Shown: in pieces, positions 17,009-44,853 of the stretch | Numbering within the stretch: the stretch's first letter is position 1 | How the letters are laid out: every line of letters starts with the position of its first letter | Assembly: GCF_003334335.1 (NCBI RefSeq) | Contig: NZ_QOWQ01000016.1 | DNA: 64,000 bases | Source of the DNA: Escherichia coli | Lineage (GTDB): Bacteria > Pseudomonadota > Gammaproteobacteria > Enterobacterales > Enterobacteriaceae | Strand: one strand, 5' to 3' | Translations under genes and position numbers: made by a program | The notes under the pieces: model-generated | The model's input: the letters and a program-made list of their open reading frames with translations, nothing else | Database searches by the model: none | What the model was told of the DNA's origin: nothing

Positions 17009-19684
17009 ATGGCTGTTACTAATGTCGCTGAACTTAACGCACTCGTAGAGCGTGTAAAAAAAGCCCAGCGTGAATATGCCAGTTTCACTCAAGAGCAAGT
17101 AGACAAAATCTTCCGCGCCGCCGCTCTGGCTGCTGCAGATGCTCGAATCCCACTCGCGAAAATGGCCGTTGCCGAATCCGGCATGGGTATCGTCGAAGAT
17201 AAAGTGATCAAAAACCACTTTGCTTCTGAATATATCTACAACGCCTATAAAGATGAAAAAACCTGTGGTGTTCTGTCTGAAGACGACACTTTTGGTACCA
17301 TCACTATCGCTGAACCAATCGGTATTATTTGCGGTATCGTTCCGACCACTAACCCGACTTCAACTGCTATCTTCAAATCGCTGATCAGTCTGAAGACCCG
17401 TAACGCCATTATCTTCTCCCCGCACCCGCGTGCAAAAGATGCCACCAACAAAGCGGCTGATATCGTTCTGCAGGCTGCTATCGCTGCCGGTGCTCCGAAA
17501 GATCTGATCGGCTGGATCGATCAACCTTCTGTTGAACTGTCTAACGCACTGATGCACCACCCAGACATCAACCTGATCCTCGCGACTGGTGGTCCGGGCA
17601 TGGTTAAAGCCGCATACAGCTCCGGTAAACCAGCTATCGGTGTAGGCGCGGGCAACACTCCAGTTGTTATCGATGAAACTGCTGATATCAAACGTGCAGT
17701 TGCATCTGTACTGATGTCCAAAACCTTCGACAACGGCGTAATCTGTGCTTCTGAACAGTCTGTTGTTGTTGTTGACTCTGTTTATGACGCTGTACGTGAA
17801 CGTTTTGCAACCCACGGCGGCTATCTGTTGCAGGGTAAAGAGCTGAAAGCTGTTCAGGATGTTATCCTGAAAAACGGTGCGCTGAACGCGGCTATCGTTG
17901 GTCAGCCAGCCTATAAAATTGCTGAACTGGCAGGCTTCTCTGTACCAGAAAACACCAAGATTCTGATCGGTGAAGTGACCGTTGTTGATGAAAGCGAACC
18001 GTTCGCACATGAAAAACTGTCCCCGACTCTGGCAATGTACCGCGCTAAAGATTTCGAAGACGCGGTAGAAAAAGCAGAGAAACTGGTTGCTATGGGCGGT
18101 ATCGGTCATACCTCTTGCCTGTACACTGACCAGGATAACCAACCGGCTCGCGTTTCTTACTTCGGTCAGAAAATGAAAACGGCGCGTATCCTGATTAACA
18201 CCCCAGCGTCTCAGGGTGGTATCGGTGACCTGTATAACTTCAAACTCGCACCTTCCCTGACTCTGGGTTGTGGTTCTTGGGGTGGTAACTCCATCTCTGA
18301 AAACGTTGGTCCGAAACACCTGATCAACAAGAAAACCGTTGCTAAGCGAGCTGAAAACATGTTGTGGCACAAACTTCCGAAATCTATCTACTTCCGCCGT
18401 GGCTCCCTGCCAATCGCGCTGGATGAAGTGATTACTGATGGCCACAAACGTGCGCTCATCGTGACTGACCGCTTCCTGTTCAACAATGGTTATGCTGATC
18501 AGATCACTTCCGTACTGAAAGCAGCAGGCGTTGAAACTGAAGTCTTCTTCGAAGTAGAAGCGGACCCGACCCTGAGCATCGTTCGTAAAGGTGCAGAACT
18601 GGCAAACTCCTTCAAACCAGACGTGATTATCGCGCTGGGTGGTGGTTCCCCGATGGACGCCGCGAAGATCATGTGGGTTATGTACGAACATCCGGAAACT
18701 CACTTCGAAGAGCTGGCGCTGCGCTTTATGGATATCCGTAAACGTATCTACAAGTTCCCGAAAATGGGCGTGAAAGCGAAAATGATCGCTGTCACCACCA
18801 CTTCTGGTACAGGTTCTGAAGTCACTCCGTTTGCGGTTGTAACTGACGACGCTACTGGTCAGAAATATCCGCTGGCAGACTATGCGCTGACTCCGGATAT
18901 GGCGATTGTCGACGCCAACCTGGTTATGGACATGCCGAAGTCCCTGTGTGCTTTCGGTGGTCTGGACGCAGTAACTCACGCCATGGAAGCTTATGTTTCT
19001 GTACTGGCATCTGAGTTCTCTGATGGTCAGGCTCTGCAGGCACTGAAACTGCTGAAAGAATATCTGCCAGCGTCCTACCACGAAGGGTCTAAAAATCCGG
19101 TAGCGCGTGAACGTGTTCACAGTGCAGCGACTATCGCGGGTATCGCGTTTGCGAACGCCTTCCTGGGTGTATGTCACTCAATGGCGCACAAACTGGGTTC
19201 CCAGTTCCATATTCCGCACGGTCTGGCAAACGCCCTGCTGATTTGTAACGTTATTCGCTACAATGCGAACGACAACCCGACCAAGCAGACTGCATTCAGC
19301 CAGTATGACCGTCCGCAGGCTCGCCGTCGTTATGCTGAAATTGCCGACCACTTGGGTCTGAGCGCACCGGGCGACCGTACTGCTGCTAAGATCGAGAAAC
19401 TGCTGGCATGGCTGGAAACGCTGAAAGCTGAACTGGGTATTCCGAAATCTATCCGTGAAGCTGGCGTTCAGGAAGCAGACTTCCTGGCGAACGTGGATAA
19501 ACTGTCTGAAGATGCATTCGATGACCAGTGCACCGGCGCTAACCCGCGTTACCCGCTGATCTCCGAGCTGAAACAGATTCTGCTGGATACCTACTACGGT
19601 CGTGATTATGTAGAAGGTGAAACTGCAGCGAAGAAAGAAGCTGCTCCGGCTAAAGCTGAGAAAAAAGCGAAAAAATCCGCTTAA
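17009..19684 (+). CDS. adhE: Bifunctional aldehyde/alcohol dehydrogenase AdhE
   Basis: 891 aa; N-terminal aldehyde dehydrogenase domain, C-terminal Fe-ADH domain; starts [26 protein letters not shown]. Confidence 0.97.
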
Positions 19685-19710
19685 TCAGTAGCGCTGTCTG
19701 GCAACATAAA

Positions 19711-20727
19711 CGGCCCCTTCTGGGCAATGCCGATCAGTTAAGGATTAGTTGACCGATCCTTAAACTGAGGCACTATAACGGCTTCCACAACAGGGAGCCG
19801 TTTTCTTATGCCACTTCTCAATGATCTGCTCGATTTCAGTGACCATCCGCTTATGCCTCCGCCCTCTGCACAACTATTTGCAGAACACCTTCCCACCGAG
19901 TGGATACAACACTGCCTGACGCTTTCTGCTCATGCGACCGTTCGCCGCCGTCGTTTACCGGGGGACATGGTTATCTGGATGGTGGTGCAATGAGCCAATT
20001 ACCGATGTTGTTCGCCGTCTGAACCTGAGCGCGGATGGCGAAGCGGGGATGAACCTGCTGGCCCGCAGCGCTGTCACCCAGGCGCGTCAGCGCGTGGGGG
20101 CCGCCCCAGTGGAATGGCTCTTCCGCCAGACCGCACAGACAGGGGCGCGGAACGTTACCTGAAGGATGACTGGCACGGCCTGCAACTTTTTGCCATTGAT
20201 GGCGCACAGTTCAGGACACCTGATAAACCCGAGCTGCGTGAATATTATGGGTCTGCCAACACATCCACTAAGCGGCAGAACGCCTACCCGGTTATGCGTC
20301 TGGTGGCCTTAATGAACCTGGGAAGTCACATTCTGCTGAATGCCGTGACCGCACCTTACCGGCAGAGCGAAACTGTGCTGGCCCACTCCATGCTCGCCAC
20401 CATCCCGGATAACTCTATTACGTTGTTTGATAAACTTTTTTACAGCGAAGACCTGCTGCTGACGCTGAACCAGAAGGGTTGTAACCGCCACTGGCTACTG
20501 CCTGCGTGGAAGAATATCGCATCAGAAATGATAGAGCTGGGAAACACGGCGTCACCAGGGACCATCCCGAAACGACTGGAGCATCTTCGGGGTGCTCTGG
20601 AAGTGGTGTTCATAACAAAACGCCCCCGACCATCAAGGCCGAGGTCGGTTAAGATATCAAAAACCCGTTATCCTGTGAAACATAGTGCCGCTCCTCTTAA
20701 GTGAACGGCATTGCCCTTCTGGGGCCG
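19711..20727 (+). mobile_element. Degenerate IS4-family-like insertion sequence remnant bounded by imperfect 21-bp inverted termini
   Basis: Termini CGGCCCCTTCTGGGCAATGCC (19711-19731) and GGCATTGCCCTTCTGGGGCCG (20707-20727) are inverted copies matching 17/21; they flank the frameshifted transposase reading frames. Confidence 0.5.
19808..20704 (+). pseudogene. insZ: Transposase pseudogene (frameshifted, truncated); corresponds to K-12 insZ/ychG
   Basis: Three consecutive reading frames (19808-19993, 19932-20162, 20114-20704) together encode transposase-like sequence; total length is too short for an intact transposase. Confidence 0.6.
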
Positions 20728-20985
20728 TATTTTTTGTTTACCCAAAGCAACTTTTCCATAAACCGACAGCATTAGCCTTCATCATATTTGCGACGATGTA
20801 TAACGCCTAAACACAGGGATATTGTACTTTACAGGTCACAAGTCAACGTCGGTGCTTAAGAGCCCTGTGAGGCGTATAGCGGCGTTAAAAAACTGCCGAG
20901 AAGGGTATATAGCCCGGAAGAAGTGCGTAAAACGAACTGACAGGATAAAAGTGCCCTGCTCACCCTGTCAGTAAAGAAATTCTTA

Positions 20986-21603
20986 TTAATCGTGGCGATG
21001 CCTTTCCTGAATAGCCGTTAATGAGTCGACTTGTAACGCCTCTTTATAGTGTTTACGGCATACAGAAACGTATCGTTCATTACCACCAATTACCACCTGC
21101 TCACCTTCGTTATAAGGTCTGCCTGCTTGATCAAGACGCAGCACCATGCTTGCTTTACGGCCACAAAAACAGATGGTTTTTAATTCAACCAGTTTGTCGG
21201 ACCATGCCAGTAAGTATTGGCTGCCAATAAATAATTCACCTCGAAAATCGGTACGTAAACCATAACAAAGTACGGGTATATCGAGTTGATCGACAACCTC
21301 CGATAATTCATATACTTGTTGTCTGGTTAAAAACTGGCATTCATCAACCAGTACGCAATGAATTGCCTGCTGTTCATGTTCCGCACGAATCTCATCAAAT
21401 AATGATGAATTTTGGTTAAATAATTTTGCAGGCGATGACAAACCTATACGCGAACTGACTTTCCCGGCACCAAAGCGATCATCAATTTCTGCCGTATATA
21501 CGACAGTGCGCATGCCGCGTTCCTGGTAATTGTATGAAGATTGCAACAATGCTGTAGACTTACCCGCATTCATTGCGGAATAGTAGAAATATAGCTGTGC
21601 CAT
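20986..21603 (-). CDS. tdk: Thymidine kinase
   Basis: 205 aa; Walker [10 protein letters not shown]; starts [20 protein letters not shown]. Confidence 0.95.
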
Positions 21604-22207
21604 CAGCCACAGGCCCTCAATGATATGAAATAAAGTTGGCTGGAGTTTATCATAATTCGTCAGTTTTTCAGCTCAACAGTATGCACAGAAGTGGGTATAT
21701 GCGTTCTCCCTTACGAAGCCTTGCATAATCCTTCTGAGCTATCATTACAACTGCCTCGCTTGTTATAAGCGGGTAAATGACTGCTGGTAACTATTCACAA
21801 TCTTTAACCTGTTGCGCAAGTAATAGCCCTCTGTTGACCTCCAGGAGATAGTGCAATACTAAGTCCATGCTCTTATTGCGACTGTTCTACTTTTCATCAT
21901 TCGCTTAATAGGGAATTCTCGTAAACACAACTAATACAGAAGACTGAAAGGTCGTCAGCCTACGATAATCTCCCCATAAAATGTGACATGAATCAGGAAG
22001 TTTTAACCTCACGTGCTGCGAAATCATCGGTGTAAATAGGGCTATATGCCGCGTCTTTTCTGGCTAATTTTATGAAAAGATATTTATTGGCGGCACAAAA
22101 TAAAGAACAATTTTGAATTCCTTACATTCCTGGCTATTGCACAACTGAATTTAAGGCTCTATTATTACCTCAACAAACCACCCCAATATAAGTTTGAGAT
22201 TACTACA

Positions 22208-44783: not shown

Positions 44784-44853
44784 AAAGAGAAAACCCCCGC
44801 ACGTTGAGAGGTAAAACCTGACAACAAAACGGGGGCTAATCTTGAAACCAGAC
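44784..44853 (-). ncRNA. rdl: Rdl-type antisense RNA (type I antitoxin) for the adjacent ldr toxin
   Basis: Minus strand reads GTCTGGTTTCAAGATTAGCCCCCGTTTTGTTGTCAGGTTTTACCTCTCAACGTGCGGGGGTTTTCTCTTT, with CCCCCG/CGGGGG stem plus U-run terminator; ends are approximate. Confidence 0.45.

What the first reader, a model, noticed from the sequence alone, without database searches (positions are those of the whole stretch)
19685..20985. Degenerate IS4-like element 27 bp downstream of adhE with recognisable inverted termini
The transposase coding sequence is split across three frames and is too short to be intact, yet the element appears bounded by 21-bp imperfect inverted repeats (19711-19731 and 20707-20727) whose four central mismatches are themselves complementary. 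An 8-bp-stem hairpin (TTAAGGAT...ATCCTTAA, 19738-19763) inside the left end may act as the adhE terminator.
Basis: partly seen in the sequence, partly recalled or inferred. Interest (0 to 1): 0.3.

Follow-up and report, generated by a model that had tools for sequence, protein, structure and literature searches.

The report
Dead IS4-type element splitting adhE terminator

Summary
The window is identical to E. coli K-12 MG1655 here, where the feature is annotated as insertion sequence ISZ' with pseudogene insZ.

- **Boundaries.** Strains with an empty site carry one intact adhE terminator, AAACGGCCCCTTCTGGGGCCGTTTTTTT. The true element is 19725-20713 (989 bp). It has 18-bp terminal inverted repeats (16/18) and a 10-bp direct target duplication, CCCTTCTGGG.
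Each 21-bp arm is 4 bp of host stem, the 10-bp duplication and 7 bp of IS end. The uninverted TTCT is the terminator loop.
- **Decay.** Full-length relatives (1430 bp, 445-aa IS4-type transposase) show three deletions in the K-12 copy: 17, 1 and 423 bp. The last removes the catalytic E/YREK motif.
- **adhE 3' end.**
- **Hot spot.** Of 5,426 complete E. coli genomes, 2,186 have an empty site, 1,884 carry this remnant and about 1,100 carry IS4 proper. IS4 occurs in either orientation, with 11- or 12-bp duplications.

The finding is ordinary and already known. The anatomy is refined, including 9 bp added to the annotated right end.

The parts
17009..19684 (+). adhE coding sequence; the upstream gene whose terminator was hit
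   Evidence: ORF of 891 aa; annotated adhE in RefSeq records
19708..19724 (+). Left half of the split adhE intrinsic terminator (AAACGGC + CCCTTCTGGG). It has lost its 3' stem arm and T-tract.
   Evidence: Empty-site strains read AAACGGCCCCTTCTGGGGCCGTTTTTTT. The intact hairpin folds at -23.7 kcal/mol, z -3.9. The left hybrid folds at -10.1, z -0.07.
19715..19724 (.). Left copy of the 10-bp target-site duplication CCCTTCTGGG
   Evidence: Exact direct repeat D16, spacing 999 bp. It is present once in empty-site strains.
19725..20713 (+). ISZ' remnant, 989 bp, a deleted IS4-group insertion sequence
   Evidence: Boundaries come from the empty-site alignment. It is 94.4% identical to a full-length 1430-bp element. 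MG1655 annotates ISZ' at 1294426-1295405, which is window 20704-19725.
19725..19742 (+). Left terminal inverted repeat CAATGCCGATCAGTTAAG
   Evidence: 16/18 complementary to 20696-20713. Identical to the left end of intact copies. Fits the IS4-subgroup end signature -AATR--------WTW----.
19734..19768 (+). It holds GATC sites and a TTGACC -35-like hexamer (19749-19754). It is probably a DNA-level regulatory or binding site, not a terminator.
   Evidence: -12.6 kcal/mol, z -4.3 here. It is a perfect 11-bp stem in intact copies, -18.7, z -6.7. No U-tract follows and no Term-seq 3' end is listed there. The regulatory role is inferred.
19777..19807 (+). IS-internal intrinsic terminator: a 10-bp stem (AACGGCUUCC/GGGAGCCGUU), a 6-nt loop and a UUUUCUU tract. 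The stem covers the GGGAG Shine-Dalgarno sequence of the transposase gene. The mapped RNA 3' end is at 19806.
   Evidence: Terminator scan. Fold of -18.3 kcal/mol, z -5.8. Term-seq 3' end at MG1655 1295324(-) in three growth conditions, 51,499 to 100,225 reads. The coordinate was mapped to the window.
19808..20704 (+). insZ transposase pseudogene. ORF pieces are 19808-19993, 19932-20162 and 20114-20704. Deletion points lie after 19986 (17 bp), 20141 (1 bp) and 20514 (423 bp).
   Evidence: Alignment to the intact element. The conceptual product matches Nterm_IS4 at 6e-27, and DDE_Tnp_1 only over model positions 2-116 of 200. BLASTP shows that residues 245-379 of the intact protein, including YHSRWEIEVGFRNLK, are missing.
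20624..20644 (-). Terminator-like hairpin on the opposite strand near the right end. It faces transcription entering from the right.
   Evidence: Consensus scan only. IS4 proper has an analogous site. Function is inferred.
20696..20713 (+). Right terminal inverted repeat CTTAAGTGAACGGCATTG
   Evidence: Its last 9 bp lie outside the annotated MG1655 ISZ' feature.
20714..20723 (.). Right copy of the 10-bp target-site duplication CCCTTCTGGG
20714..20735 (+). Right half of the split adhE terminator: loop, 3' stem arm and T-tract. Together with CGGC of the IS end it forms a weak hairpin.
   Evidence: Terminator scan. Fold of -11.3 kcal/mol, z -0.7. No Term-seq 3' end is listed there.
20736..20985 (.). 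Native adhE-tdk spacer, not part of the element. It includes the tdk terminator on the minus strand (hairpin 20940-20959, RNA 3' end at 20932).
   Evidence: Present in empty-site strains. Terminator scan. Term-seq 3' end at 1294198(+), which is window 20932.

Best explanation
An IS4-group insertion sequence transposed into the loop of the Rho-independent terminator of adhE and made a 10-bp staggered-cut duplication, CCCTTCTGGG. Its full-length form is 1430 bp, has 18-bp terminal inverted repeats and encodes a 445-aa transposase with Nterm_IS4 and DDE domains.

The copy then decayed in place through deletions of 17, 1 and 423 bp. The 423-bp deletion lies between TATCGCGRCAGAAA direct repeats and removes the catalytic glutamate and the YREK motif. 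The result is the fixed, immobile remnant that K-12 annotates as ISZ'/insZ.

The insertion destroyed the host terminator on the adhE side, leaving no 3' stem arm and no T-tract. Transcription from adhE now runs 40 nt into the element and stops at the element's own hairpin with a U-tract (19777-19802), which ends just before the transposase start codon.

In a live element that hairpin most likely protects the transposase gene from outside read-through. It would terminate transcription and sequester the Shine-Dalgarno sequence. This matters for an element whose preferred targets are terminators.

Shown here: boundaries, duplication, decay, family assignment and the position of the RNA 3' end.

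Inferred: that the 3' ends belong to adhE transcripts, the protective role of the hairpin, and symmetric target recognition by the transposase.
For: - **Empty site and boundaries.** The empty site carries a single intact terminator, which fixes the junctions and the duplication. The direct repeat is exact (D16). The inverted repeats beat 100 of 100 shuffles.
- **Intact relatives.** Copies of 1429-1430 bp occur in 162 genomes and 102 plasmids, with 10-11-bp duplications.
- **Family.** Pfam gives Nterm_IS4 at 1.7e-30 and DDE_Tnp_1 at 5e-22. NCBIfam NF033592 scores 263 bits against a cut-off of 115. The protein is 39% identical to the IS4 transposase. The YREK motif is visible in the translation.
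- **Decay.** Deletion map and truncated DDE match.
- **Annotation.** MG1655 carries ISZ'/insZ here, and the window is identical to MG1655 over 2,201 bp.
- **Terminator loss and replacement.** Folding energies, terminator scan, and a Term-seq 3' end at window 19806 in three conditions, with no other 3' end listed on that strand between tdk and adhE.
- **Same architecture in IS4.** IS4 has an unrelated-sequence hairpin with a U-tract just before its ATG. A promoter-like site has its -10 overlapping the left arm of that hairpin.
- **Target preference.** Four of 7 distinct sites of the ISZ-type element, and 2 of 4 IS4 sites, have the duplication exactly centred on a perfect stem of at least 6 bp. 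Background for that is 0.1% of positions. The literature reports 'spectacular' target-arm specificity in the IS4 subgroup.
Against: - Term-seq gives 3' ends, not their origin. That the reads at 19806 come from adhE transcripts is inferred from strand, position and abundance. Processing rather than termination is not formally excluded.
- No expression data were seen for an empty-site strain.
- The element's own promoter is only a weak consensus match (TTGACC, 19 nt, TATAAC) and was not reported by the scan.
- Hairpin targeting is a strong preference, not a rule. Three of 7 ISZ-type sites and 2 of 4 IS4 sites lack a perfectly centred stem.
Confidence: 0.93

Rival explanations
1. The IS is bounded by 21-bp imperfect inverted repeats at 19711-19731 and 20707-20727, and the hairpin at 19738-19763 terminates adhE.
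For: The 17/21 complementarity is real. The hairpin at 19738-19763 folds well, z -4.3.
Against: - Positions 19711-19724 and 20714-20727 are present, once, in strains with no element.
- Intact copies at other loci share only CAATGCC.../...GGCATTG and have unrelated flanks.
- No U-tract follows 19763, and no Term-seq 3' end is listed there. The 3' end is at 19806.
Confidence: 0.03
2. There is no transposon-end signal at all. The repeat is just two host-encoded terminators facing each other around an old gene fragment.
For: Fourteen of the 21 positions of each arm are host terminator sequence.
Against: - There is only one terminator in empty-site genomes.
- The inner 18 bp on each side recur as the ends of 1430-bp elements at unrelated loci and are flanked there by fresh 10-11-bp duplications.
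- The ends match the IS4-subgroup signature.
Confidence: 0.01
3. The remnant is not dead. With both ends intact it could behave as a non-autonomous, MITE-like element, mobilised in trans by a full-length ISZ-type or IS4 transposase.
For: Both terminal repeats are identical to those of intact copies. The left end differs from that of IS4 at position 1 only within the first 22 nt. K-12 carries an intact IS4, insG.
Against: - Of the complete genomes, 1,884 carry the remnant between adhE and tdk.
- The median is one place per genome, and no second locus with the same three deletions was seen.
- The two transposases are only 39% identical, and their right ends differ.
Confidence: 0.07
4. The several occupied states of the adhE terminator reflect one ancient insertion followed by recombinational replacement between related IS ends, not repeated independent insertion into a hot spot.
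For: ISZ' and IS4 share about 35 bp of nearly identical left end, which could support gene conversion.
Against: - Duplication length differs between states: 10 bp for ISZ', 12 bp for IS4 in the + orientation, 11 bp for IS4 in the - orientation.
- One IS4 copy is inverted, and the flanking haplotypes differ.
- IS4 is also found in the analogous bamD terminator.
Confidence: 0.05

Closest known systems
ISZ' / insZ (b4573) of E. coli K-12 MG1655
   Same: It is the same object. The window is 100% identical to MG1655 over 2,201 bp. ISZ' is annotated at 1294426-1295405 and the insZ pseudogene at 1294426-1295322. It is also listed as ISZ'/insZ in a comparative IS table (PMC3032704).
   Different: The annotated feature ends at the pseudogene stop codon (window 20704). 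The inverted repeat and the empty-site junction place the true right end 9 bp further on (window 20713, which is 1294417). The annotation seen here does not mark the duplication or the split terminator.
IS4 (insG) of E. coli, type element of the IS4 subgroup
   Same: - Same domain architecture and NCBIfam model.
- Similar size: 1426 versus 1430 bp.
- Nearly identical left end: TAATGCCGATCAGTTAAGGATC versus CAATGCC....
- Duplications of 10-14 bp.
- A terminator-like hairpin just before the ATG.
- Insertion into the same adhE terminator loop.
   Different: The transposases are only 39% identical. The right ends and internal sequence are unrelated at the DNA level. It is a separate element, not a variant of IS4.
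Palindrome-targeting insertion sequences: ISRm22 (IS4 family, into REP elements); IS1397/ISKpn1 and IS621 (other families)
   Same: Insertion is directed to extragenic palindromes and hairpins (PMC1525189). IS4-subgroup elements show strong conservation in the left and right target arms (PMC2266710).
   Different: The targets here are individual GC-rich hairpins that look like terminators, flanked by A- and T-tracts, not a repeated REP family. The preference is strong but not absolute.
Protection from outside transcription in IS10, IS50 and IS200 (from my own knowledge, not checked in papers here)
   Same: A hairpin at the transposase-proximal end forms only in transcripts that enter from outside. 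It blocks read-through or occludes the ribosome-binding site. Dam GATC sites lie at the end or the promoter.
   Different: No experiment was seen for ISZ-type elements. The parallel rests on sequence anatomy and on the Term-seq 3' end.

Membership tests
IS4 family, IS4 subgroup (De Palmenaer et al. 2008, PMC2266710) | A single-ORF DDE transposase with the Y-(2)-R-(3)-E-(6)-K signature | tested here: not met
   The intact relative has it (YHSRWEIEVGFRNLK; DDE_Tnp_1 at 5e-22). The window copy has lost it through the 423-bp deletion and is split by two frameshifting deletions. The window copy is therefore a remnant of a member, not a functional member.
IS4 family, IS4 subgroup | Transposase homology (Pfam Nterm_IS4 plus DDE_Tnp_1; NCBIfam NF033592) | tested here: met
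   The window's conceptual product matches Nterm_IS4 at 6.3e-27 and DDE_Tnp_1 at 6.6e-8, the latter truncated. The intact relative scores 263 bits on NF033592 against a cut-off of 115.
IS4 family, IS4 subgroup | Terminal inverted repeats with the end signature -AATR--------WTW---- | tested here: met
   In CAATGCCGATCAGTTAAG, positions 2-5 are AATG and positions 14-16 are TTA. The right end is 16/18 complementary.
IS4 family, IS4 subgroup | Target-site duplication of 10-13 bp | tested here: met
   A 10-bp CCCTTCTGGG here, and 10-11 bp at six other sites of intact copies.
IS4 family, IS4 subgroup | Length of 1400-1650 bp | tested here: not met
   The window copy is 989 bp because of deletions totalling 441 bp. 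The intact relative is 1430 bp.
ISZ' of E. coli K-12 (annotated mobile element) | Same sequence at the same locus between adhE and tdk | tested here: met
   100% identity to NC_000913.3 1293400-1295600, with matching feature coordinates.
Rho-independent terminator (hairpin 19777-19802) | A GC-rich stem-loop followed by a U-tract, with an RNA 3' end in the U-tract | tested here: met
   A 10-bp stem and a UUUUCUU tract. The Term-seq 3' end is at 19806 in three conditions. Independence from Rho was not tested directly. adhE and insZ were not found in the paper's table of Rho termination regions.
   The stem is followed by ACTGAGGC. No 3' end is listed between 1295324 and the adhE gene.

The most novel reading that the evidence does not exclude
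IS4-group elements, both IS4 and the ISZ type, home to intrinsic terminators and bring a replacement terminator at their transposase-proximal end. Insertion then swaps the host gene's terminator instead of abolishing termination.

On this reading the adhE terminator is a recurrent hot spot, occupied in roughly 60% of complete E. coli genomes by at least three independent insertions. In K-12 the abundant adhE mRNA owes its 3' end and 3' UTR to a fossil IS. The co-orientation of the element with the upstream gene at 5 of 5 terminator-type sites would reflect selection for this terminator swap.
Probability: 0.5. Interest if true: 0.35.

Novelty: already known. Interest (0 to 1): 0.15.

Why it matters
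There is little new biology. The element is annotated in the K-12 reference, and IS4-subgroup target specificity is published.

Useful by-products:
- A corrected right boundary for ISZ' (9 bp further, to MG1655 1294417), and explicit identification of its 10-bp duplication and of the split adhE terminator.
- An explanation for the strong 'orphan' Term-seq 3' end at 1295324. It is the adhE transcript ending at an IS-borne terminator. This matters to anyone engineering or quantifying adhE expression or its 3' UTR in K-12 as against strains such as O157:H7, which keep the native terminator.
- A clean natural example of repeated insertion of two IS4-group elements into one terminator loop.

Tried and rejected
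- **Whole-spacer census query.** A 301-bp empty-site query could not separate occupied from empty sites, because the insertion point is 30 bp from its end. I replaced it with 111-bp junction-centred queries.
- **IS4-proper count.** It is obtained only by subtraction: 3,020 minus the 1,884 ISZ' genomes that cross-match at 81% coverage. It is therefore approximate.
- **Classical IS4 target consensus.** I recall it as AAA-N20-TTT, from galT and the pheST attenuator. I could not find a held paper stating it, so it is treated as unverified memory. Target sites were examined directly instead.
- **ISfinder name.** I could not establish one for the full-length relative. A text search for 'ISEc13' returned only tool-output mentions, so no name is claimed.
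- **Rfam.** At gathering thresholds it finds no RNA family in 19685-20985.
- **Hairpin 19738-19763 as terminator.** Rejected: no U-tract and no mapped 3' end.
- **Right-junction hairpin (20706-20735) as an active terminator.** It folds no better than shuffles (z -0.7) and has no listed 3' end, so this is left open.
- **Heavy searches not used.** Protein-database, structure-prediction and metagenome scans were unnecessary.

Full report
**What is in the sequence**

The region lies between adhE (17009-19684, +) and tdk (20986-21603, -), with hns and galU further on. Window 19530-21730 is 100% identical to E. coli K-12 MG1655. MG1655 annotates 'insertion sequence: ISZ'' at 1294426-1295405, which is window 20704-19725, and the pseudogene insZ (b4573) at 1294426-1295322. 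A comparative IS table also lists ISZ'/insZ for K-12 (PMC3032704).

**Check of the observation**

The repeat finder extends the match to 41-nt arms at 78% (I1). In 100 dinucleotide-preserving shuffles of 19600-21100, none reached the observed 16/18, 19/21 or 32/41. The repeat is real and not due to chance.

**What the repeat really is**

A megablast of the interval against 5,426 complete E. coli genomes shows three main states of the adhE-tdk spacer.

In empty-site strains, such as L001, the spacer is 301 bp. It reads ...CATAAACGGCCCCTTCTGGGGCCGTTTTTTTGTTT..., a canonical intrinsic terminator about 25 nt after the adhE stop codon. It folds at -23.7 kcal/mol, z -3.9.

Aligning the window to this sequence fixes the junctions:
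- Left: ...AAACGGC CCCTTCTGGG | CAATGCCGATCAGTTAAG...
- Right: ...CTTAAGTGAACGGCATTG | CCCTTCTGGG GCCGTATTTTTT

The element is therefore 19725-20713 (989 bp). It is flanked by an exact 10-bp direct duplication, CCCTTCTGGG, at 19715-19724 and 20714-20723 (D16). Its true terminal inverted repeats are 19725-19742 and 20696-20713, 16/18 complementary.

- 4 bp of host terminator stem (CGGC or GCCG).
- The 10-bp duplication. Its CCC and GGG are the inner stem, and its TTCT is the terminator loop. Because this segment is duplicated directly, the loop is not inverted.
- 7 bp of genuine IS end.

This explains the 'mismatches that are themselves complementary'.

**Family and decay**

Full-length relatives of 1429-1430 bp are about 99% identical to each other and 94.4% identical to the window copy. 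They occur in 162 of the genomes and on 102 plasmids, mostly Escherichia, with some Salmonella and Klebsiella.

The relative on NZ_CP062837.1 encodes a 445-aa protein with these properties:
- Pfam Nterm_IS4 at 1.7e-30 and DDE_Tnp_1 at 5e-22.
- NCBIfam NF033592 at 263 bits, against a cut-off of 115.
- A visible Y-2-R-3-E-6-K motif, YHSRWEIEVGFRNLK.
- 39% identity to the IS4 (insG) transposase.

The ends (CAATG...TTA), a size of 1430 bp and duplications of 10-11 bp meet the published definition of the IS4 subgroup (PMC2266710).

Relative to the intact form, the window copy has exactly three deletions:
- 17 bp after 19986.
- 1 bp after 20141.
- 423 bp after 20514, between direct repeats TATCGCGRCAGAAA.

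The first two deletions shift the frame and then restore it. The three ORF pieces therefore occupy two frames, not three. The third deletion removes residues 245-379, including the catalytic E and the YREK motif. The copy cannot encode an active transposase even if the frameshifts were repaired.

**Where adhE transcription now ends**

After insertion, the adhE-proximal half-terminator has no 3' stem arm and no T-tract. It folds no better than shuffled sequence (-10.1 kcal/mol, z -0.07).

Two strong hairpins lie inside the left end of the element:
It folds at z -4.3 and is a perfect 11-bp stem in intact copies.
- **Hairpin B (19777-19802)** folds at -18.3 kcal/mol, z -5.8. It is followed by TTTTCTT and then the transposase ATG at 19808, and its 3' arm contains the GGGAG Shine-Dalgarno sequence.

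Published Term-seq data for MG1655 (Adams et al. 2021, PMC7815308, supplementary file 1) list a 3' end at 1295324 (-) in all three growth conditions, with 53,801, 51,499 and 100,225 reads. It is classed as 'orphan'. The printed sequence equals window 19756-19816, and the 3'-terminal nucleotide is window 19806, inside the U-tract of hairpin B. No other 3' end is listed on that strand between tdk and the adhE coding region.

**Likely role of the hairpins in a live element (inferred)**

IS4 proper has, at the same place, an unrelated-sequence hairpin: an 11-bp stem, a 6-nt loop, a U-tract, and then the ATG 5-6 nt later. A promoter-like site (TTGACC, 16 nt, AAGAAT) has its -10 overlapping the left arm of that hairpin. 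The ISZ-type element has TTGACC at 19749-19754 and TATAAC at 19774-19779 in the equivalent position.

Transcripts from the element's own promoter would start inside the hairpin and escape it. Transcripts entering from outside would form it and terminate. This resembles the protection from outside activation described for IS10, IS50 and IS200, which I cite from my own knowledge and did not check here.

Hairpin A carries GATC sites and the -35-like hexamer. It is more likely a DNA-level regulatory or binding feature than an RNA terminator.

**Target choice**

I examined seven distinct insertion sites of the ISZ-type element. They lie after adhE, silE, ypjA and gnd, at two plasmid intergenic sites, and inside a plasmid umuD-like gene.
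- Four of the 7 have the duplication exactly centred on a perfect stem of 6-10 bp. Only 0.1% of positions in the window meet that criterion.
- Two more lie within 1.5 nt of a 4-5-bp stem.
- One has only imperfect symmetry.

At all five sites that follow a gene's 3' end, the transposase gene points the same way as the upstream gene. With five sites this is only suggestive.

IS4 proper shows the same behaviour:
- **adhE terminator:** AAACGG[CCCCTTCTGGGG]CCGTTT
- **bamD terminator:** AAACGG[CAGCCCTTGAGCTG]CCGTTT
- **fiu:** AAACGT[CCCCGGCGTGGG]TGCGTTT
- **K-12 insG site:** AAACAC[...]GCCTATTT, which has no hairpin

This agrees with the published remark that some IS4-subgroup elements show 'spectacular' specificity in the left and right target arms. 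It also suggests that the symmetric A-tract and T-tract arms matter at least as much as the hairpin itself.

**A recurrent hot spot**

| State of the adhE terminator | Complete genomes (of 5,426) | Source |
|---|---|---|
| Uninterrupted | 2,186 | |
| K-12-type ISZ' remnant | 1,884 | |
| IS4 proper | about 1,100, by subtraction | |

IS4 proper occurs here in three forms:
- A 1145-bp remnant with a 12-bp duplication, for example in ATCC 11775 and an ST131 strain.
- An intact 1426-bp copy in the same orientation (L006).
- An intact copy in the opposite orientation with an 11-bp duplication (L005).

The different duplication lengths, orientations and flanking haplotypes argue for at least three independent insertions into the same loop.

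**Verdict**

The feature is real, ordinary and already annotated. The stated termini, the extent of the element, the 'three frames' and the choice of terminator hairpin need correction.

The small additions here are:
- The 10-bp duplication.
- A right end 9 bp beyond the MG1655 feature.
- An explanation for an 'orphan' Term-seq peak.
- Evidence that the adhE terminator is a repeated IS4-group target.

Noticed in passing
window 27508-28536: There are three tRNA-Tyr(GUA) genes at 294-bp spacing and four RtT repeats. The MG1655 reference has only two tRNA-Tyr genes here, tyrT and tyrV, even though the adhE-tdk region of the window is identical to MG1655. This looks like a copy-number difference of the tandem tyrT/V unit.
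   Followed up: partly
window 20705-20713 (MG1655 1294417-1294425): The MG1655 mobile-element feature ISZ' stops at the insZ stop codon. The last 9 bp of the right inverted repeat (ACGGCATTG) are left outside it.
   Followed up: yes
L002:642-1786, L006, L005 (adhE-tdk spacer of other E. coli strains): IS4 proper occupies the same adhE terminator loop in other lineages. It is a 1145-bp remnant in ATCC 11775 and ST131-type strains, and intact in both orientations in single strains, with 12- or 11-bp duplications.
   Followed up: yes
L006:1142-1170 and window 19777-19807: IS4 and the ISZ-type element carry hairpins of the same shape just before the transposase ATG: a 10-11-bp stem, a 6-nt loop and a U-tract. 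The sequences are unrelated. Both elements also have a terminator-like hairpin on the opposite strand near the right end.
   Followed up: partly
window 20932-20970 (- strand): This is the tdk terminator hairpin. A Term-seq 3' end at MG1655 1294198(+) corresponds to window 20932.
   Followed up: partly
window 20729: The T-tract after the right half-terminator reads GCCGTATTTTTT in K-12, against GCCGTTTTTTT in empty-site and IS4-occupied strains. This is a substitution in the now redundant U-tract.
   Followed up: no
L008, L009, L015, L025 (silE-copM spacer of the sil/pco cluster): The nearly full-length ISZ-type copy after silE is 1429 bp and annotated as frameshifted. It lies at the same site in ATCC 8739, ETEC H10407 and others, so it appears to travel with the sil/pco island and not to be active.
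   Followed up: no
window 44788-44853 (- strand): An rdlD antitoxin RNA (Rfam RF01813, 91.8 bits), part of the ldr/rdl toxin-antitoxin repeats.
   Followed up: no
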